In this document: piece by piece, positions 947 to 31,271 of the stretch
Position numbering within the stretch: position 1 is the stretch's first letter
Layout of the letters: the number at the start of each line of letters is the position of its first letter
Virus genome (UHGV): UHGV-0377591
Origin: a virus
DNA: 44,209 nt
Strand: one strand, 5' to 3'
The notes under the pieces: generated by a model
Seen by the model: only the letters and a program-made list of their open reading frames with translations
Database searches by the model: none
What the model was told of the DNA's origin: nothing
Made by a program: the position numbers and the translations under genes

Positions 947-1219
947 ATGATTTACCAACTCTACCGCGCCGTTGACTGGCGGGATAACGCAGAGGCGCTA
1001 TGGCTGTTGCGCGCTCCGTCCGGCGCACACCAGATGGAAGAGATGGCGTACTTAGGCAAAGTACCGCGGCCTAAAGACATAGGCCGTCACGTGTCGCAGA
1101 TTAAGCGCACGACTTTTGCCAAGCCTGACTTTTATGTCTTCGAGTCGATGTATGGGTGGGTCATGCATTGCCATCACCAGACACGGCATTTGATTGACCA
1201 GTGGGAGAACAGGGTATGA
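947..1219 (+). CDS. Hypothetical protein, 90 aa
   Basis: ORF track; stop overlaps the next start (ATGA at 1216-1219). Confidence 0.6.
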   Translation: MIYQLYRAVDWRDNAEALWLLRAPSGAHQMEEMAYLGKVPRPKDIGRHVSQIKRTTFAKPDFYVFESMYGWVMHCHHQTRHLIDQWENRV

Positions 1220-2457
1220 TTCTAAAAGAACGTGGCGGCAATAACGATGTGCACGCCTTACTGTCACCGTCAGGCGCTAAAAAGTGGCTAAGCTGCGCCG
1301 CATCGCTGGCCTGTGAAAAAGATATTCCTAACACATCTGGTAAAGACGCCGTTACAGGGACCGCGTGTCACACCATAGCCGAGGTCCATTTAAATCAGTA
1401 CATCAAAGGCACTGCGTTGCCGTTAGAGCGTGAAGTCGGTGCTTACGTGCTGGATGAAGGCAAAGGCCAGATTAAGGCGTTAATCAGCCCTATGAAAGGT
1501 GCGGTACTTATTACGGCGGACATGATTGAGCAGGTGCGTAAGTACACCGACTACTGCAAACCGATTATCGACGTAGCGACTTACGCCAAGCTGGAAATGC
1601 GCGTCAATCTTACAGAGGTGCTGCATCCGGGATATGAAGGCGTTGAGACGTTCGGGACCGCTGACCTTGTTGCCGTGCAGGAACTGGCGAACACCGACGA
1701 GCACATGCTCATTATTGGAGACCTTAAAACAGGACGGCACCGTGTTGAAGCGAAAGAAAACAAGCAGCTTATGCTTTATGCTCTCGGTGTTTATCGCCGA
1801 CTCAAGAGACGATATAACATCACAGTTGTTCGTCTGGTCATCTTCCAGCCGTACGCTGGGGGCGCGTCGGAGTGGGACATCTCGGTTGAAGGTCTGGAAC
1901 TGTTCGCTAAGTTCGCACGGAAACGTGCACTGTTAGCATTAGATGCGTATTTCCGTGGTAAAAAGAACCTTAAAGCGTCGGACTTCAAGCCGTCAGTAGA
2001 TGGTTGCCAGTGGTGTCGGTTCTCTGAACAGTGCGCCGCGCGTACAAAAACCGTTAACTCTGTACTGGCGGAAGAACTGGAAGATGACTTTGCGCCGGAG
2101 CTTACGCCGGAGCAACTCGTAACCGAGTATGAGAAGTTGCCGTTGTTGCGTCAACACATCGACAAGGTTGAGAAAGCTATGGCTGCCGCGTTGCATTCCG
2201 GTAAGAAAGTTCCGGGGTACAAGCTGGTCGAGGGTCGTCCTGGTAATCGTGCGTGGAAAGATGCAGAGAAAGTAGCAGAACTCTACGGCGACAAGCTGAC
2301 TAAAGAAGTGCTCATGACGCCGACAGAAGCTGTTAAAGTTATCCCGGAAGAAGAACTGAAAGACTTCATTACCCGTAAGCCGGGAGCGCCATGCGTCGCC
2401 GCGGCAGACGATAAACGGCCTGAGTGGGACAGTGTAACAGAGGAGGATTTAGAATGA
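1216..2457 (+). CDS. PD-(D/E)xK Cas4/RecB-like exonuclease with Fe-S cysteine cluster (DUF2800-type)
   Basis: Start moved to ATG 1216 (GGAG upstream). Motifs IGDLKTGR and QLMLYALG; C-terminal CQWCRFSEQC plus N-terminal Cys; ends VTEEDLE. Confidence 0.75.
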   Translation: MILKERGGNNDVHALLSPSGAKKWLSCAASLACEKDIPNTSGKDAVTGTACHTIAEVHLNQYIKGTALPLEREVGAYVLDEGKGQIKALISPMKGAVLITADMIEQVRKYTDYCKPIIDVATYAKLEMRVNLTEVLHPGYEGVETFGTADLVAVQELANTDEHMLIIGDLKTGRHRVEAKENKQLMLYALGVYRRLKRRYNITVVRLVIFQPYAGGASEWDISVEGLELFAKFARKRALLALDAYFRGKKNLKASDFKPSVDGCQWCRFSEQCAARTKTVNSVLAEELEDDFAPELTPEQLVTEYEKLPLLRQHIDKVEKAMAAALHSGKKVPGYKLVEGRPGNRAWKDAEKVAELYGDKLTKEVLMTPTEAVKVIPEEELKDFITRKPGAPCVAAADDKRPEWDSVTEEDLE

Positions 2458-2954
2458 GTTTAGTCCGGGAGCGTTTCATTTATGACAACGGGAAACTAAT
2501 CTATCGCCACAATACAAAAAGAATGTTAGCGGGTCATGAGGCAGGAAGCCTCCACCATTCAGGGTATGTGCAGATATACATTAATCGTAAGTCCTACCAA
2601 AGAAGCCGTTTAATATGGGAGTACCACAACGGCCCTATACCTGAAGGGTTTGAGGTGGACCATATAAATGCGATAAGAAATGATGACAGGATAGAGAATC
2701 TCCAGTTAATCGCCCATAGTGATAATGTGGCTAAAGGTGGTATTCAAACCGGAAGAAGTCATAACAAAAGTGGGTACACTGGCGTGTTTTGGCGCAAAAG
2801 CCACGGTAAATGGCAAGCTGGAATTACCGTAAACGGGCAATATCGTTACCTTGGACTATTCGAAACTCCTGAACATGCTAACGTGGCAAGAAAGAATTTT
2901 GAAAGTAATTTGCTAAAAGAAGTTGACTACCGAATAGCGAACTATTATAGTTAA
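2454..2954 (+). CDS. HNH homing endonuclease with AP2-like DNA-binding domain
   Basis: Start moved to ATG 2454 (AGGAGG upstream, ATGA overlap). HNH core EVDHIN…NDDRIENLQL; AP2-like GYTGVFWRKSHGKWQAGITVNGQYRYLGLFETPEHA. Confidence 0.8.
   Translation: MSLVRERFIYDNGKLIYRHNTKRMLAGHEAGSLHHSGYVQIYINRKSYQRSRLIWEYHNGPIPEGFEVDHINAIRNDDRIENLQLIAHSDNVAKGGIQTGRSHNKSGYTGVFWRKSHGKWQAGITVNGQYRYLGLFETPEHANVARKNFESNLLKEVDYRIANYYS
2923..2951 (+). promoter_or_regulatory. Early sigma70-like promoter (class I) embedded in the 3' end of the HNH gene
   Basis: TTGACT (2923-2928), 17-bp spacer, TATAGT (2946-2951); AATAG-CGAA-CTATT at 2933-2946. Confidence 0.55.
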
Positions 2955-2980
2955 ATCACTGGCCGGGCAGTTCCCGGAGT

Positions 2981-3015
2981 AAACTTAAAATCTAAACTTA
3001 AAATCTAAACTTAAT
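2981..3015 (+). repeat. 13-bp tandem direct repeat AAACTTAAAATCT, about 2.7 copies
   Basis: Two exact units at 2981-2993 and 2994-3006 plus a partial third; sits between the promoter and the SSB-like gene. Confidence 0.8.
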
Positions 3016-3027
3016 GAGGGCTGAACT

Positions 3028-3654
3028 GTGGGACTGAAATTAAATCTGCGTAAAGTAAACACTGCATGGGTTAACGTATTCGAACGCGAAAAAGACCGTG
3101 AAAACGATGATGGCTCAATCACTAAAGGCCAGTACAGCGCAACGATTATCCTGCCGTCTGACCATGCTCAAATCGATGCGCTCTACGACACCGTTTACGC
3201 GGTAGTTGAAGAAGCATTGGGCGCCGCCGCTGCCGAGAAGTGGATGAAATCCAACTACGGCGAAGGTAAGCACATGGATAAATGCGCGATTAAAGACATT
3301 GCCGAGCGCGACAATCCGTTTGAAGACTTCCCGGAAGGATTCTACTTCAAAGCGAAGGCGCAGAAACAGCCACTAATTGTAACCTCTAAAAAAGGTGAGA
3401 CACAGGTAGAGCAGGACTTCAATGCAGACGGCGAGCAGATTGAAGGTGAACAGGTTTACAGCGGCTGTGTTGCCAACGTAAGCGTTGAAATCTGGTTCAG
3501 CCAGAAATACAAAGTTCTCGGTGTTAACCTGCTGGCGATTAAATACGTCGGTGAAGGTAAGGCGTTCGGGGGTTCTAAAGTAGCCGCCAGCGTCGACGAC
3601 CTGGAAGACGACGAAGAGGGTGAAGCACCGCGCCGCGAACGTCGCCGCCGCTAA
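3028..3654 (+). CDS. Putative single-strand DNA-binding protein (DUF2815-like), 208 aa
   Basis: ORF track (GTG start after GAGGG). Sits between the Cas4-like exonuclease and the DNA polymerase; acidic C-terminal region DDLEDDEEGE. Function assigned from context and memory only. Confidence 0.5.
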   Translation: MGLKLNLRKVNTAWVNVFEREKDRENDDGSITKGQYSATIILPSDHAQIDALYDTVYAVVEEALGAAAAEKWMKSNYGEGKHMDKCAIKDIAERDNPFEDFPEGFYFKAKAQKQPLIVTSKKGETQVEQDFNADGEQIEGEQVYSGCVANVSVEIWFSQKYKVLGVNLLAIKYVGEGKAFGGSKVAASVDDLEDDEEGEAPRRERRRR

Positions 3655-28488: not shown

Positions 28489-29010
28489 ATGGTTACTACA
28501 GTAATTACTTTCCCTGCGTATGTAGGGGCGAAAATATGCAGGGCTAAAAATGATGTTCGCTACTATTTGAACGCTTTTTACATAGACCCTGAAGGATTGA
28601 TAGTGTCTACGGACGGTCATAGATTGTTCTGCGACAATGTGAAGACCAACGTTGAGAAAGGGACTCTCATAGACATCAAAGGGAGAGAGCCTTCTAAATT
28701 TAACTACGCGGAGGTAAACCACGACAACGGCAGTGTATCTTTCTATAACGATAATCGTGCGCTTATATGTACACTTCCGGTAGATGTTGTAGAAGGAAAC
28801 TTTCCTGACTGGAGACGCGTGGCGCACATCACACCGGGTGTTGTCGATAGTATAGGGTTCACCCTGCGTTATTTGGCAGACGCGTACAAGATTTCTAAGG
28901 CATACAAAAATGAAATTGCTCGTTTCGATTTCCAGGACCAAACCAGAGGATGCAAAATACAATTTTCAAACACGGCCTTTATGGTGTTAATGCCTGCGCG
29001 ATTTAAATAA
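28489..29010 (+). CDS. Hypothetical protein, 173 aa, encoded on the opposite strand inside the head-gene module
   Basis: ORF track; own promoter and AGGAGATGAGAA ribosome-binding site; own terminator. Confidence 0.65.
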   Translation: MVTTVITFPAYVGAKICRAKNDVRYYLNAFYIDPEGLIVSTDGHRLFCDNVKTNVEKGTLIDIKGREPSKFNYAEVNHDNGSVSFYNDNRALICTLPVDVVEGNFPDWRRVAHITPGVVDSIGFTLRYLADAYKISKAYKNEIARFDFQDQTRGCKIQFSNTAFMVLMPARFK

Positions 29011-29015
29011 AACTA

Positions 29016-29040
29016 AGGCCCCATTATGGGGCCTTTTATC
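29016..29040. terminator. Bidirectional rho-independent terminator
   Basis: AGGCCCC-ATTAT-GGGGCCT-TTTTAT. Confidence 0.75.
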
Positions 29041-29497
29041 ATCCTGGTTTAGAGACCTTCGCCGCTTTGCTTACGGCCTCCGCACCATCGGCATCAGTAA
29101 CTTTAACGAAGTATTCACCAGCCGCATTAACAGTCAGAGACAGAGCCTCTTCCGGGGCGTTCACCACTTCCTTCCCGTCTTTGTACCAGGTCAGTACATA
29201 CGGCGCTTTACCCGCCTTAACTTCGACAGTGATGGTGGCGCTACCGTCGACCAGCTCGGTGTCTTTCGGTTGCACAGAGAAATACACATCGCCAGCATCT
29301 GCCAGATACGGAATCTCATAAAGCATACCTGCCGCTGGAAGTGCAATACCGGTTTTATCTGCAAACGGCATATCATCTACCGGCGTACCCAGTACACTTT
29401 CGTCCTCAATAAATACCACGTTCTCACCAGAGCCAGACACGCGGGCGTACTGGACTACGCGTCGCGACGGTACATCAGTTACTTTGAAAAAGCACAT
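29039..29497 (-). CDS. Ig-like domain virion protein
   Basis: Motif APYVLTWYKDGKEV, paralogous in style to the 24995..25339 protein. Confidence 0.55.
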   Translation of the reverse strand: MCFFKVTDVPSRRVVQYARVSGSGENVVFIEDESVLGTPVDDMPFADKTGIALPAAGMLYEIPYLADAGDVYFSVQPKDTELVDGSATITVEVKAGKAPYVLTWYKDGKEVVNAPEEALSLTVNAAGEYFVKVTDADGAEAVSKAAKVSKPG

Positions 29498-29500
29498 AAA

Positions 29501-30124
29501 CTAAACCTCTTTCATTGAGTTAATCTTACGTAAGACGCCTTCGAAAAGGCGTGGGTCTATGCTATCGCAAAGACCTTTGTATTCATATGCTAATTCAATT
29601 TTTCTATGAAACCATGCTACGTGTGCCTCTTGAGCGGTTTCGTAAGCGCCTATTTGTTCAGATACGCCATCCACGGATACTTGAGCGATGAATCTTTTCT
29701 TTTGTTTATGGAAATGTACGCCGAGTGGGTGTTCGCCTCGAAGAGCGTCGTGGGCTGTTAGGAAAGTATTGAGGGATTTAGGGATAAAAACACAGTTAGA
29801 AGCATCGTAAACCTTATTTCCCGGGTTAAGTAAATCCTTATCTATCTGCCACCCAGGTACATAAAAATCATCAAACCAGACCTTGAAATTACTGAACACC
29901 AACCAATCGTCCGACACGCGGCAACCTATATAAGTTCTGTTTCTTTGCTGCCATTTCTTGTCGTAGCACCTCTTTAACATGTTCTTCCATACGGCGTAGG
30001 ACGCTATATGCACCCCTCCGCAACTTATTGGTGAAACATCGTTAATACCCACACCAAAAACAATTCCCATATTAAACCCTATAAGAAAACCCCATGAAGA
30101 TTGGTCGATGCCAGAGATAGGCAT
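29501..30124 (-). CDS. Putative homing endonuclease-like protein with AP2-like DNA-binding domain
   Basis: C-terminal AP2-like GVHFHKQKKRFIAQVSVDGVSEQIGAYETAQEAHVAW; N-terminal catalytic domain not assigned; true start probably internal. Confidence 0.45.
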   Translation of the reverse strand: MPISGIDQSSWGFLIGFNMGIVFGVGINDVSPISCGGVHIASYAVWKNMLKRCYDKKWQQRNRTYIGCRVSDDWLVFSNFKVWFDDFYVPGWQIDKDLLNPGNKVYDASNCVFIPKSLNTFLTAHDALRGEHPLGVHFHKQKKRFIAQVSVDGVSEQIGAYETAQEAHVAWFHRKIELAYEYKGLCDSIDPRLFEGVLRKINSMKEV

Positions 30125-30194
30125 ACCTTCATGGGGTTATATTCTTTCTCTATTTTTAGTAGTTCACCGACCAAAGCTAGCTACTAGATATACT

Positions 30195-31271
30195 TTATAC
30201 CGACCTAAGATATTCAGCAACCCTGTTATCTAACGCCGCCATCTCCTTCAAGGTTAAAGGTCTACCAAAAGCGTCGACGGATATTACCCGGAATTCCTCT
30301 GGGGATATCCCACTATTCCTGAATATAGCACCGCGGGTAGGTCCGAGTGCTTCATCCACGAACCATGCCGGTTGCTGTTTCAGGAACTCGTAATAGGTGG
30401 TGTCTGCGCTTACCTGCATACCGCCGTCCGCACCCTTAGCCGCGCGTTTTGCACCTTTATCTAGGAAGTCGAACTCCGAACTGATTACCGGTGCAGTGGT
30501 ACTTCGACATCCAAAATGGGCGGGGGGCATCGGACCTTTACCGATTTCCCACGTCATCCCGTCTCTGGCCCTGCAAATCGTACTGGTACGGCTGTCCAGC
30601 GTTGACACCCATTCGTATTTCTCGATGATGTCGTCGTTCTGGCGGTATGTCTCGTTGCGGGCTTCGTTGGATACGTGAGACAGCGCGGTGCGGATTACCG
30701 TAGCCGCGTTGCGTTCAGAGATGTCCGCCAGCCCACCAGCGCCTACGACATTTTTAACAATCTGCCGTGTGGTTTGGCCCTGAACAAACCCCATCTTAAC
30801 GCCAGTTACGAGGCGCGCGGCCTCCGTTTCACCCCAGCCTGCCATCAGCTTAGTGAAATCGACGGGCTTGTCGCTTAACGACAGCGGCTGAAACTCGGCA
30901 GCAGCCCACACCTGTTCGGCGGTAGGCGTAACAAATTCCGCGTCAACGTTGGCGGTCAGTGTTTTTACGTTCCACTCAGCCTCATATGCGGCCAGTTCCT
31001 TAAGGTCTTCTGTCAGCTTTGTTTGCCAGTCACCTGTAAGCCCCGTCAGTGCTTCTTCAAGGTCGCGTAACAGTTTATTCAGTCGCGCAGTGCTTCGCCC
31101 GTCGTCACCGAATAACAGCACCTGCCGTTTGATTTCGTCCCGCATCTCCTGAATGAACGGTGCGAGGTCTTTCACTTCACCGGACGCGGTGCGTTGCAGC
31201 CATATCTGGTGGCTGATTAGGGATGTAAGTAAGCTCATAGATAAACCCTGTGGCGCTAAAGTTAATAGCAT
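30195..31271 (-). CDS. Head morphogenesis protein (SPP1 gp7 / Mu F-like, by position and size)
   Basis: ORF track; immediately downstream of the portal gene. Confidence 0.65.
   Translation of the reverse strand: MLLTLAPQGLSMSLLTSLISHQIWLQRTASGEVKDLAPFIQEMRDEIKRQVLLFGDDGRSTARLNKLLRDLEEALTGLTGDWQTKLTEDLKELAAYEAEWNVKTLTANVDAEFVTPTAEQVWAAAEFQPLSLSDKPVDFTKLMAGWGETEAARLVTGVKMGFVQGQTTRQIVKNVVGAGGLADISERNAATVIRTALSHVSNEARNETYRQNDDIIEKYEWVSTLDSRTSTICRARDGMTWEIGKGPMPPAHFGCRSTTAPVISSEFDFLDKGAKRAAKGADGGMQVSADTTYYEFLKQQPAWFVDEALGPTRGAIFRNSGISPEEFRVISVDAFGRPLTLKEMAALDNRVAEYLRSV

What the first reader, a model, noticed from the sequence alone, without database searches (positions are those of the whole stretch)
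29501..30124. Two free-standing homing-endonuclease-like genes at module boundaries
One (2454..2954) has a clear HNH core and AP2-like domain and lies between the exonuclease and SSB-like genes. The other (29501..30124) has an AP2-like DNA-binding C-terminus and an unassigned N-terminal domain (YAVWKNMLKRCYDKKW…) and lies between the head morphogenesis and Ig-like genes. Both are the sort of selfish insertion whose presence varies between relatives; the first also carries an early promoter in its 3' end.
Basis: partly seen in the sequence, partly recalled or inferred. Interest (0 to 1): 0.4.

Follow-up and report, generated by a model that had tools for sequence, protein, structure and literature searches.

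The report
Two mobile endonuclease genes, one with RNA leader
Both genes are real, sporadically present selfish nuclease genes of known kinds in an E. coli phage. The second one lacks the usual catalytic histidine and sits behind a conserved folded RNA leader that matches no Rfam family.

Summary
The window is a Kagunavirus (Guernseyvirinae) coliphage genome. Both ORFs exist.

**Gene 1 (2454..2954, +)** is a canonical HNH_3 + AP2 gene. It lies between the exonuclease and SSB genes and reads through a conserved promoter-like site.

**Gene 2 (29501..30124, − strand)**
- It has an AP2 C-terminus. Its "unassigned" N-terminus is a divergent HNH (ββα-metal) domain.
- The catalytic His is replaced by an invariant Lys (D-K-D…Y…C…N).
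- It belongs to the "IPA-HNH" family named in 2023. Its closest solved fold is PacI, a His-less HNH enzyme.

**Mobility.** Gene 2 is present in only about 5 of roughly 280 related phage records. It lies in a ~695-bp insert between the MuF-like head gene and the decoration gene. Mosaic flank identity fits co-conversion. Cleavage was not tested.

**Corrections and additions**
- The true start of gene 2 is probably 30070, not 30124. The first 18 codons lie inside an RNA hairpin.
- The insert carries a ~130-nt leader with two hairpins. Their stems show compensatory changes and their loops are complementary.
- A covariance model of this leader finds similar leaders directly upstream of unrelated IPA-HNH genes. 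Rfam has no match.

**Verdict.** These are ordinary homing-endonuclease genes of known kinds. The leader RNA and the His-less active site are the points worth following.

The parts
29501..30070 (-). Probable true CDS of HEG 2 (189 aa), an IPA-HNH family protein: divergent HNH domain plus AP2 domain.
   Evidence: PHROG 953, 3e-79. Most of the closest homologues are 189-194 aa and start at the equivalent Met. The Schulenburg annotators use this start with an RBS. In the AF2 model, residues 1-16 of the long form have pLDDT <50.
30071..30124 (-). 5' extension of the mechanical ORF. Probably non-coding, because the ATG at 30124 sits inside leader hairpin HP2.
   Evidence: The conserved nucleotides GGCATCGACCAA are read in different frames in different lineages, and the upstream ATG is out of frame in L008.
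30066..30194 (-). Structured 5' leader of HEG 2, made of two hairpins with complementary loops. It matches covariance model R1.
   Evidence: 99.1% of cells paired, 10 pairs with compensatory changes, 0/500 shuffles reach this. R1 hit of 149 bits. No Rfam match.
30158..30185 (-). Leader hairpin HP1: a 5-bp variable stem (AGUAG/CUACU) around an invariant 18-nt loop, CUAGCUUUGGUCGGUGAA.
   Evidence: All 5 stem pairs change on both sides across 8 leaders.
30088..30138 (-). Leader hairpin HP2: a 12-bp outer stem (AACCCCAUGAAG/CUUCAUGGGGUU), an inner AUGCC/GGCAU hairpin and a 3' internal loop CGACCAAU. A U-rich tract follows, so it looks like a terminator.
   Evidence: 5 of 12 outer pairs covary. 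It appears in the MFE folds.
30101..30107 (-). 3' partner (CGACCAA) of the proposed loop-loop pairing with UUGGUCG at 30168..30174 in the HP1 loop.
   Evidence: Invariant within the MuF-site lineage. Different complementary pairs occupy the same places in unrelated leaders.
29768..29842 (-). HNH-like (ββα-metal) motif D95-K96-D97 ... N103 ... Y106 ... C111 ... N119, numbered on the 207-aa form. Lys stands where the catalytic His normally is.
   Evidence: Invariant columns. hhalign puts D95-K96 on D-H and N119 on the metal-binding Asn of canonical HNH_3. The motif carries Lys at the His position in 141 of 148 diverse representatives.
29585..29728 (-). AP2/ERF-type DNA-binding domain of HEG 2 (about residues 133-180).
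29515..30208 (-). The ~695-bp insert relative to empty alleles. It supplies a new 4-codon MuF end plus stop, the leader, and the HEG ORF minus its last 14 nt.
   Evidence: Alignment with the empty alleles fFiEco03 and Ivi. Boundary strings located. GC is 41.8% against 50.4% for the whole window.
30209..30350 (-). 3' end of the MuF gene that travels with the HEG. It is a putative co-conversion tract and may hold the target or immunity region.
   Evidence: Against HEG-minus Ivi, codons 301-354 differ at 37 of 162 nt (21 synonymous and 7 non-synonymous codons), compared with 2.9% over codons 1-300. Against HEG-plus K1ind3 there are 0 differences here, compared with 9.2% elsewhere.
29300..29497 (-). 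5' part of the decoration gene, with raised divergence from HEG-minus Ivi. This is the weaker, downstream side of the exchanged segment.
   Evidence: 6-13 mismatches per 50 bp here against 0-1 further on.
30195..31271 (-). Phage_Mu_F-like head morphogenesis gene, the upstream neighbour.
   Evidence: Pfam PF04233, 1.2e-12; PHROG 241.
29039..29497 (-). Hoc-like, Ig-like head decoration gene, the downstream neighbour. Its RBS lies in the last 14 nt of the HEG ORF.
   Evidence: PHROG 3945, 8e-85. The RBS GAAAGAGG is homologous to GAAAGGGG of empty alleles.
2454..2954 (+). HEG 1: a canonical HNH_3 + AP2 free-standing endonuclease gene (166 aa). Its start overlaps the exonuclease stop (ATGA).
   Evidence: Pfam HNH_3, 9.4e-18; AP2, 1.4e-4. 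D-H...N...N is invariant in homologues. Absent from most relatives.
2923..2951 (+). Sigma-70-like promoter match (TTGACT-17-TATAGT) inside the 3' end of HEG 1, upstream of the SSB gene.
   Evidence: Scan gives 10 of 12 matches. The same element is conserved in empty and differently occupied alleles.

Best explanation
Both ORFs are free-standing homing endonuclease genes (HEGs) that have invaded intergenic junctions of a Kagunavirus genome.

**HEG 1 (2454..2954)** is a canonical HNH_3 + AP2 enzyme. It is inserted between the exonuclease stop codon and the promoter of the SSB gene.

**HEG 2 (probable CDS 29501..30070, minus strand)** belongs to the IPA-HNH family. It has an N-terminal ββα-metal (HNH-type) nuclease domain and a C-terminal AP2 domain.
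- The metal ligands are retained (Asp95, Asn119).
- The general-base His is replaced by an invariant Lys96.
- An invariant Tyr106 sits in the loop between the two strands.
- The AP2 domain supplies sequence-specific DNA binding.

**Inferred mechanism.** During co-infection the enzyme nicks or cuts the HEG-less allele in or near the conserved 3' end of the MuF gene. Recombinational repair then copies the ~695-bp cassette plus about 150-200 bp of flank on each side into the recipient. The HEG-bearing allele escapes because its copy of that flank differs at about a quarter of positions, mostly synonymously.

**Leader.** The cassette brings its own 5' leader, two hairpins whose loops can kiss. The second hairpin ends in a G+C-rich stem followed by U's, just before the ribosome-binding site. 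The most likely role is a cis-acting attenuator or expression throttle that keeps nuclease dosage low inside the late structural operon.

**Shown versus inferred.**
- Shown: gene presence, domain homology, motif conservation, insertion boundaries, mosaic flanks, RNA covariation.
- Inferred: cleavage, the target site, the Lys/Tyr chemistry, and the leader's function.
For: **Taxon and site polymorphism**
- The flanks match 283 Guernseyvirinae records, but the HEG 2 protein is found at >=95% identity in only 7 records, i.e. 5 phages.
- In empty alleles the MuF stop overlaps the decoration-gene start.

**Horizontal transfer with flanks**
- K1ind3 and 536P11 differ from the window by about 8-12% in the flanks, but by 1-2 nt over about 900 bp that cover the HEG, the leader and the last ~190-220 bp of MuF.
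- Ivi (HEG-minus) is 100% identical to the window over ~450 bp of MuF, then identity falls to 63-85% in 60-nt windows, 23% divergence over the last 54 codons.
- Diverged homologues (60-71% aa identity) occupy the same MuF/decoration junction in more distant phage contigs.
- Both HEGs have about 42% GC against 50% for the genome.

**Family**
- PHROG 953, 3e-79.
- BLASTP 6e-18 to an ICP1 ORF of the same architecture and motif.
- The IPA-HNH family is defined in PMC10448857.
- 6,173 clusters at E<=1e-30. Several genomes carry multiple copies.

**Nuclease domain**
- hhalign 97.2% to the canonical HNH_3-AP2 family, aligning D95-K96 with D-H and N119 with the metal-binding Asn.
- The D-K-D...Y...C...N motif carries Lys at the His position in 141 of 148 representatives.

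**AP2 domain:**

**Leader**
- 99.1% of cells paired, 10 compensatory pairs, 0/500 shuffles.
- Model R1 finds leaders ending at the AUG of unrelated IPA-HNH genes: L252 at 6e-8, L283 at 2e-6, L238 at 1e-5, and others.
- Loop-loop complementarity recurs with different sequences.

**HEG 1:**
Against: **No activity data.** Nothing has been measured for this protein and, as far as I could find, for any IPA-HNH member. Barth et al. call them putative.

**Mobility.** The presence/absence pattern and mosaic flanks could arise from ordinary homologous recombination between co-infecting phages, without targeted cleavage. The strongly diverged flank may simply reflect a distant donor rather than selection for cleavage immunity.

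**Leader.**
- Within the MuF-site lineage the loop-loop pairing never varies, so support for it comes only from unrelated leaders.
- Single 6-nt complements there are individually weak: 0.10-0.24 of shuffles do as well.
- Only about 10-14% of sampled family loci show the leader under strict criteria.
- Cultured-phage members JD001, ZK22, VIPECOTH07, SeKF_64 and ICP1 lack it.
- A strong terminator upstream of the decoration gene would be costly, which argues against efficient termination.
Confidence: 0.7

Rival explanations
1. HEG 2 is a domesticated, nuclease-dead DNA-binding protein. It would act as a regulator or site-specific binder that uses AP2 and a degenerate HNH scaffold, kept by the phage for its own benefit rather than as a selfish mobile nuclease.
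For: The catalytic His is lost. There is no Pfam HNH hit. His-Me fingers that lost catalysis and kept DNA binding are known, for example SMAD MH1 (PMC5714182). HEG-derived repressors such as CapR exist (PMC10448857). Related phage records annotate homologues as 'putative DNA binding protein'.
Against: The would-be metal ligands and a Lys/Tyr pair are essentially invariant across more than 140 clusters that are <=50% identical to each other. A pure DNA binder has no need for this. The gene is sporadic, low in GC, multi-copy in some genomes, and has moved with its flanks between diverged phages. A useful regulator of head assembly would be expected to be conserved across the genus.
Confidence: 0.15
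2. Both genes are ordinary accessory 'morons'. They were gained by illegitimate or homologous recombination and are often lost by deletion, with no targeted cleavage involved. The mosaic flanks would simply reflect general phage recombination.
For: Guernseyvirinae genomes are mosaic elsewhere in this region too. The neighbouring clamp-like ORF 28489..29010 is also absent from K1ind3. No cleavage has been shown.
Against: Both proteins belong to families whose architecture (HNH + AP2) is that of homing endonucleases. The exchanged tract is short and centred on the gene. The junctions are precise and recur with different occupants, and three different inserts all start at the exonuclease stop. 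Diverged homologues hold the same site.
Confidence: 0.1
3. The 'leader' is no more than a Rho-independent terminator plus an unrelated upstream hairpin, both carried on the cassette. The loop-loop complementarity would then be chance or a by-product.
For: HP2 has a G+C-rich base and a U-tract. Six-nt complements are matched by 10-24% of shuffles individually. The pairing never varies within the one lineage that is well sampled.
Against: HP2's loop is 28-40 nt with a conserved inner hairpin and a conserved internal loop, far larger than typical terminator loops. The loop sequences are more conserved than the stems. Complementary segments recur at the same two places (HP1 loop, and HP2 internal or apical loop) with six or more different sequences, including 7-8-nt matches that 0.4-7% of shuffles equal. 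These segments are left unpaired in independent MFE folds.
Confidence: 0.25

Closest known systems
[quoted passage not shown]
   Same: The N-terminal HNH-like domain is too divergent for the Pfam HNH_3 model but is detectable by profile-profile comparison. The C-terminus is an AP2 domain. The gene is free-standing and sits next to essential or structural phage genes. An ICP1 ORF is directly homologous (BLASTP 6e-18) and has the same LDKD...GNK.Y...C.F.P...N motif.
   Different: This copy is in a small coliphage (Kagunavirus), at a MuF/decoration junction. The passages of the paper I searched (term searches) do not mention the His-to-Lys substitution or any conserved 5' leader RNA; I did not read the whole paper. 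I did not map the ICP1 homologue to the paper's gp numbers.
[quoted passage not shown] 2004)
   Same: HEG 1 is a plain member: Pfam HNH_3 at 9.4e-18, D-H...N...N invariant, AP2 at the C-terminus. HEG 2 aligns to this family over both domains (hhalign 97.2%).
   Different: HEG 2 has Lys instead of the general-base His, a 3-residue insertion carrying an invariant Tyr, and a different N-terminal extension (a β-hairpin plus helices with the Y..W..M..RC motif).
R.PacI, a His-less HNH restriction endonuclease (PDB 3M7K)
   Different: Sequence identity is 13%. PacI is a homodimeric restriction enzyme with two Cys4 zinc sites and no AP2 domain. HEG 2 has no equivalent zinc ligands. Whether Tyr106 or Lys96 plays PacI's Tyr role is unknown.
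Regulatory RNA hairpins upstream of T4-type free-standing and intron-encoded HEGs (I-TevI, mobE; my own knowledge of Gott et al. 1988 and Gibb & Edgell 2007, not checked here)
   Same: RNA secondary structure immediately upstream of an HEG embedded in a phage operon, thought to limit or delay endonuclease expression.
   Different: In the T4 cases a single hairpin sequesters the RBS, or a terminator-like hairpin is present, and no shared motif exists. Here a two-hairpin fold with complementary loops recurs upstream of homologous HEGs in unrelated phages, and the RBS lies outside the stems.

Membership tests
HNH / His-Me finger nucleases (Pfam HNH_3, PF13392): HEG 2 | Recognised by the family's sequence model | tested here: not met
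   No Pfam or NCBIfam hit at E<=1. The domain is reached only by profile-profile comparison: hhalign 97.2%, E 3.7e-11, against an HNH_3-AP2 alignment.
HNH / His-Me finger nucleases: HEG 2 | ββα-metal fold | tested here: met
HNH / His-Me finger nucleases: HEG 2 | Catalytic general-base histidine (the first H of HNH) | tested here: not met
   The position aligned to His is Lys96. It is invariant in 35 homologues, and Lys fills it in 141 of 148 representatives matched by the motif.
HNH / His-Me finger nucleases: HEG 2 | Metal-binding Asp before the His position, and Asn or His in the helix | tested here: met
   D95 and N119 are invariant and align with D and N of canonical HNH_3.
HNH_3 + AP2 homing endonucleases: HEG 1 (2454..2954) | HNH_3 model above threshold, D-H...N...N motif, C-terminal AP2 | tested here: met
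   HNH_3 scores 64 bits against a cut-off of 24.8. AP2 scores 22.6 bits, below its cut-off of 33.3, but the AP2 pattern is conserved in the alignment.
IPA-HNH HEG family (PMC10448857) | Atypical HNH domain missed by Pfam HNH_3 plus a C-terminal AP2 domain, with homology to the ICP1 representatives | tested here: met
   For the architecture. BLASTP gives 6e-18 and 27% identity over 156 aa to ICP1_2006_B ORF ADX88704, which carries the same motif. tblastn hits many ICP1, Barbavirus (Rheinheimera) and Pseudomonas phage records, the lineages the paper names.
AP2/ERF DNA-binding domain (PF00847): HEG 2 | Three-stranded sheet packed on a helix, with the sequence pattern GV...(K/R)(F/W).A.I....G....LG.F.T.eeAa.AY | tested here: met
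Free-standing homing endonuclease gene (functional definition) | Sporadic presence at one fixed site among close relatives, with a precise empty site | tested here: met
   for HEG 2; for HEG 1.
Free-standing homing endonuclease gene (functional definition) | Co-conversion of flanking markers with the gene | tested here: met
   Identity mosaics centred on HEG 2. Not examined in the same detail for HEG 1.
Free-standing homing endonuclease gene (functional definition) | Site-specific cleavage of the HEG-less allele, and super-Mendelian inheritance | not testable with these tools
   This requires enzyme assays and phage crosses.
PacI-like His-less HNH enzymes (His-Me finger group 20) | A loop Tyr acting in place of His, and two Cys4 zinc sites | tested here: inconclusive
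   An invariant Tyr106 lies in the loop between the two strands, but its geometry could not be inspected. The Cys4 sites are not met: only Cys111 is invariant, and Cys53 and Cys68 vary.
Intrinsic (Rho-independent) terminator: leader hairpin HP2 | A G+C-rich stem with a short loop, followed directly by a U-tract | tested here: inconclusive
   The G+C-rich base and U-rich tail are present in nearly all leaders. The enclosed region is 28-40 nt and structured, so the consensus scan did not call it.
Any described RNA family (Rfam 15) | A match to a curated covariance model | tested here: not met
   There was no meaningful match in window 29900..30400; the best was mir-454 at E 0.46, 17 bits against a gathering score of 60. 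Six unrelated leader-bearing loci gave none at E<=1.

The most novel reading that the evidence does not exclude
The ~130-nt leader may be a previously undescribed class of cis-acting structured RNA that travels with IPA-HNH homing-endonuclease cassettes. It has two hairpins joined by a loop-loop (kissing or pseudoknot) helix. The second hairpin is terminator-like and abuts the ribosome-binding site. On this reading it controls the dose or timing of the nuclease.

Separately, the nuclease itself may use a Lys/Tyr-based chemistry instead of the near-universal His of ββα-metal enzymes.
Probability: 0.4. Interest if true: 0.6.

Novelty: new member of a known kind. Interest (0 to 1): 0.42.

Why it matters
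**The genes themselves are routine.** HNH-AP2 homing endonucleases are common in phages, and this exact protein is already annotated as a putative HNH endonuclease in phage fPoEco01.

**Two points go further.**
1. IPA-HNH is a very large family: more than 6,000 clusters at 50% identity with E<=1e-30. It has no biochemical characterisation, and it has swapped the hallmark catalytic His for an invariant Lys next to an invariant loop Tyr. Showing that it cuts DNA, and how, would extend the known chemistry of His-Me finger nucleases. It would also validate thousands of annotations.
2. A conserved folded leader recurs upstream of homologous HEGs in unrelated phages. It would be a compact, testable example of how a selfish nuclease gene carries its own expression control into host operons.

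**Practical consequence.** Kagunavirus phages are used as therapy and synthetic-biology chassis. These cassettes are dispensable and mark recombination hot spots.

Tried and rejected
**Searches that found nothing useful**
- Pfam and NCBIfam gave nothing for HEG 2.
- A sequence search of the PDB with the single protein gave only a spurious hit.
- Foldseek against the PDB returned only AP2 domains, all with E>0.06.
- The PacI structure paper (PMC2886031) is not held, so PacI's residue roles are taken from two reviews.
- Literature searches for 'IPA-HNH', for Kagunavirus plus homing endonuclease, and for RNA motifs near HEGs found only Barth et al. 2023 and nothing on a leader.

**Scans that returned only chance matches**
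- The metagenome scan with the 15-nt loop sequence GCTTTGGTCGGTGAA returned 120 hits. None had the second hairpin nearby, so that scan was wasted.
- The viral scan with the HP2 pattern added one locus, L028. It is a chance match inside a coding region of an unrelated 120-kb contig.

**Hypotheses rejected**
- A leader peptide, or a longer N-terminus starting at 30124. The conserved nucleotides are read in different frames in different lineages, the upstream ATG is out of frame in L008, and the AF2 model is disordered over residues 1-16.
- An own sigma-70 promoter for HEG 2 in the window. The scan found none. Some unrelated leaders do have a TATAAT just upstream of HP1 (by eye).
- A known ribozyme or riboswitch class. 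Rfam gave no match.

**Limits of the leader's distribution.** Model R1 found no leader upstream of the family members in the cultured phages JD001, ZK22, VIPECOTH07, SeKF_64 and ICP1.

**Test deliberately not run.** I did not count the pseudoknot on a hand-made alignment of picked complementary segments, because that would be circular. Shuffle tests were used instead.
Full report
**What the window is.** A 3-kb stretch around the finding matches 283 phage records, nearly all Guernseyvirinae (Kagunavirus of E. coli, Jerseyvirus of Salmonella). The best match is Escherichia phage vB_EcoS_fPoEco01, at 98.8% identity. The window is therefore essentially a whole Kagunavirus genome.

**Checking the observation.**
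- The ORF at 29501..30124 exists, but on the minus strand (207 aa).
- Upstream, in gene direction, is a Phage_Mu_F head-morphogenesis gene at 30195..31271. Downstream is an Ig-like, Hoc-like decoration gene at 29039..29497.
- The ORF at 2454..2954 (+) is the ATG form of the mechanical ORF 2424..2954. Its homologues are 157-166 aa.
- It carries Pfam HNH_3 (9.4e-18) and a sub-threshold AP2 match (1.4e-4). D-H, N and N are invariant in its homologues.
- It lies between the exonuclease (1201..2457, whose stop overlaps its ATG) and the SSB-like gene (3028..3654).
- In an alignment of five alleles this element is conserved whether the site is empty (ST20), holds this gene (window, Esher4), holds a different HNH-AP2 gene (Ivi) or holds a short unrelated insert (Sciku). 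The promoter therefore belongs to the SSB gene, and the HEG ORF has simply extended into it.

**What HEG 2 is.**
- Pfam and NCBIfam see nothing. PHROG 953 ('HNH endonuclease') matches at 3e-79.
- Thirty-four homologues align over the full length. The invariant residues are W46, R52, Y65, D95, K96, D97, Y106, C111, N119, G135 and K175.
- A profile-profile comparison with the canonical HNH_3-AP2 family of HEG 1 gives 97.2% probability across both domains. It puts D95-K96 on the canonical D-H and N119 on the metal-binding Asn. Y106 falls in a three-residue insertion in the loop between the two strands.
- The 'unassigned' N-terminal domain is therefore a divergent ββα-metal (HNH) domain in which Lys replaces the catalytic His.
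- This is a family trait, not decay. A profile search of 1.84 billion representatives finds 6,173 clusters at E<=1e-30. Of the 148 best, all <=50% identical to each other, 143 match the D-x-D…Y…C…N pattern and 141 carry Lys at x.
- AlphaFold models are confident: full length pLDDT 89.5 with residues 1-16 disordered, N-domain alone 92.9.
- PacI is the textbook His-less HNH enzyme. Asp and Asn hold the metal, and a loop Tyr takes the place of His (PMC4081073, PMC5714182, PMC3384342).
- That gives a precedent for an active site built from D95, N119 and Y106 and/or K96. I could not inspect the geometry, and PacI's zinc sites are absent.

**Relation to the literature.**
- Barth, Dunham & Seed (2023, PMC10448857) described 'IPA-HNH' HEGs in Vibrio phage ICP1 and other phages. 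These have HNH domains too divergent for the Pfam profile plus C-terminal AP2 domains, are often next to essential genes, and are abundant in Barbaviruses and some Pseudomonas phages.
- HEG 2 hits those same groups by tblastn. It aligns at 6e-18 with an ICP1 ORF that carries the same LDKD…GNK.Y…C.F.P…N motif. It is a member of that family.
- The identical protein is annotated 'putative HNH endonuclease' in fPoEco01.
- I found no biochemical study of any member.

**Evidence that HEG 2 is mobile.**
- Only 7 records (5 phages: fPoEco01, fFiEco02, Schulenburg, K1ind3, 536P11) hold the protein at >=95% identity. All other phage hits are below 60%.
- In empty alleles the MuF stop overlaps the decoration-gene start.
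- The alignment places a ~695-bp insert at window 29515..30208.
- The insert supplies four new MuF codons and a stop, then a leader, then the HEG ORF. The last four codons and stop of that ORF (ATG AAA GAG GTT TAG) are homologous, in frame, to the old MuF end (CTG AAA GGG GAT TAA). This preserves the decoration gene's RBS.
- Mismatch maps show the signature of transfer with flanks:
  - K1ind3 and 536P11 differ from the window at 4-13 positions per 50 bp on both sides, but at only 1-2 positions over 29495..30384/30417.
  - HEG-less Ivi is identical to the window over 30350..30800, yet differs at 11-18 per 50 bp in the last 150 bp of MuF and at 6-13 per 50 bp in the first 200 bp of the decoration gene.
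- By codon:

| Comparison | MuF codons 1-300 | MuF codons 301-354 |
|---|---|---|
| Window vs Ivi (HEG-minus) | 26 nt differences | 37 nt differences (21 synonymous and 7 non-synonymous codons) |
| Window vs K1ind3 (HEG-plus) | 83 nt differences | 0 |

- Homologues at 60-71% identity sit at the same MuF/decoration junction in more distant phage contigs, including ~43-kb contigs in Salmonella assemblies.
- The insert has 41.8% GC, and the HEG 1 segment (2454..2990) 42.3%, against 50.4% for the genome.
- All this fits homing with co-conversion, and a target in the conserved MuF 3' end. It does not prove cleavage.

**HEG 1 mobility.**
- Only one phage (MirsaeidiM_Esher4) has it at 96% identity. 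Eight records fall at 60-80%; the seven listed, Salmonella phages such as FSL SP-031, have a 66.5% version next to the exonuclease.
- The exonuclease/SSB junction is a hot spot. Window-type, Ivi-type and Sciku-type inserts all begin at the same GAATGA, where the exonuclease stop overlaps a start codon.

**The leader (not part of the original finding).**
- Comparing the MuF-to-HEG spacer across diverged HEG-bearing loci showed invariant segments separated by stems that change in a compensatory way.
- The elements, on the minus strand, are:

| Element | Window coordinates | Description |
|---|---|---|
| HP1 | 30158..30185 | 5-bp stem around an invariant 18-nt loop, CUAGCUUUGGUCGGUGAA |
| HP2 | 30088..30138 | 12-bp outer stem, inner AUGCC/GGCAU hairpin, internal loop CGACCAA(N), then a U-rich run |
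| RBS and start | AUG at 30070 | Lie downstream of HP2 |

- On eight leaders, 99.1% of cells pair and 10 pairs change on both sides: all five of HP1 and five of twelve in the HP2 outer stem. No shuffle of 500 reaches this, and sliding the partners collapses pairing to 20-43%.
- The ATG at 30124 lies in the inner hairpin. The conserved GGCATCGACCAA is read as GIDQ in the window but as RHRP in L011, and the upstream ATG is out of frame in L008. These 18 codons are therefore RNA structure, not protein, and the start is 30070. The Schulenburg annotation uses the same start.
- The HP1 loop segment UUGGUCG is complementary to CGACCAA in HP2. Within this lineage neither varies, so it is untestable there.
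- A covariance model without the loop pairing (R1) was run over 142 loci encoding diverse family members. It found matches only on the coding strand and ending at the start codon of the HEG:
  - L252 at 6e-8, L283 at 2e-6 and L238 at 1e-5.
  - L154, L228 and L173 at about 0.004-0.014.
  - L167 at 0.06.
- In these unrelated leaders the same two places carry different complementary sequences:
  - UGAGACG : CGUCUCA
  - UGAUGC : GCAUCA
  - UGGAAC : GUUCCA
  - GUGGAAA : UUUCCAC
  - GCCAGAAA : UUUCUGGC
  - GUACGAG : CUCGUAC
  - GUACCAG : CUGGUAC
- Independent MFE folds leave those segments unpaired in loops.
- Against shuffled upstream sequence, 8-nt matches are equalled in 0.4-1% of shuffles, 7-nt matches in 4-7% and 6-nt matches in 10-24%. 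The case is cumulative rather than decisive.
- With strict rules, 19 of 136 family loci have an HP2-like hairpin just upstream, against 5 of 136 control regions. Thirteen of those also have a loop complement.
- Family members in the cultured phages JD001, ZK22, VIPECOTH07, SeKF_64 and ICP1 lack the leader.
- Rfam 15 has no match.

**What the leader probably does.**
- My best reading is a cis-acting attenuator or expression throttle for the nuclease, carried on the cassette.
- A plain terminator plus chance complementarity is the main rival.
- Efficient termination would also starve the downstream decoration gene, so partial attenuation, RNA stabilisation or protein binding remain open.

**Verdict.** The genes are ordinary members of known HEG kinds, and one is already annotated as such. 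The invariant His-to-Lys active site with PacI-like fold affinity is worth a specialist's follow-up, and so is the recurrent structured leader. Both need experiments.

Noticed in passing
window 30066..30194 (minus strand); also L006, L008, L011, L020, L024, L027, L017, L252, L283, L238, L154, L157, L167, L173, L228, L233, L288: A conserved two-hairpin 5' leader with complementary loops lies upstream of HEG 2 and of unrelated IPA-HNH genes. It has no Rfam match. It is described in the main report because it belongs to the cassette.
   Followed up: yes
L019 (phage Snoke, MK931441) 1601..3460; also fEg-Eco06 (PQ141284): In some relatives the same MuF-like head morphogenesis gene is interrupted by an annotated intein. 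This gene therefore hosts two different kinds of selfish element within the genus. The window has no intein.
   Followed up: no
window 28489..29010 (+): This ORF has weak DNA-pol-III-beta-like and 'RusA-like' PHROG matches. It sits on the opposite strand between the decoration gene and the spanin genes. It is missing from K1ind3 and 536P11, whose match starts only at window ~29018, so it is another variable accessory gene.
   Followed up: partly
window 2440..2460 and L013-L016: The exonuclease/SSB junction is an insertion hot spot. At least three unrelated inserts all begin at the same GAATGA, where the exonuclease stop overlaps a start codon: the window-type HNH-AP2 gene, an Ivi-type HNH-AP2 gene of low similarity, and a ~190-bp Sciku-type segment.
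   Followed up: partly
window ~2975..3010 (+): Between the promoter-like site and the SSB start, the window has an extra 14-nt direct repeat (AAACTTAAAATCT repeated) compared with its closest relative at this locus, Esher4.
   Followed up: no
window 29494: A window-specific substitution lies in codon 2 of the decoration gene: ATG TGC (Cys) here against ATG GGC (Gly) in all six relatives compared.
   Followed up: no
P0013, P0014, P0017 (alignment A1): These homologues are only ~47-54% identical to HEG 2 overall, yet their last ~40 residues (LAWFNRKIELAYEYKALCDSIDPRLFEGVLRKIHSMKEV) are almost identical to the window's. This suggests domain-level recombination between HEG lineages that share a site.
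   Followed up: no
L288 ~2310..2365: In this viral contig the leader and its IPA-HNH gene lie directly downstream of what looks like the 3' half of a tRNA gene (GGTTCGAGTCC...CCA).
   Followed up: no
L158-L161 (Pseudomonas agarici LMG 2112); L217/L218 and L233/L250 (single viral contigs): The family is multi-copy. Four equally scoring copies lie on separate contigs of one bacterial genome, and two copies lie a few kb apart on single viral contigs.
   Followed up: no
L154, L157, L167 (upstream of HP1): In these unrelated leaders a TATAAT box, with a TTGCAT -35 in L157, lies a few nt upstream of HP1. The order would be promoter, HP1, HP2, RBS, AUG, as in attenuators and riboswitches. This was seen by eye only.
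   Followed up: no
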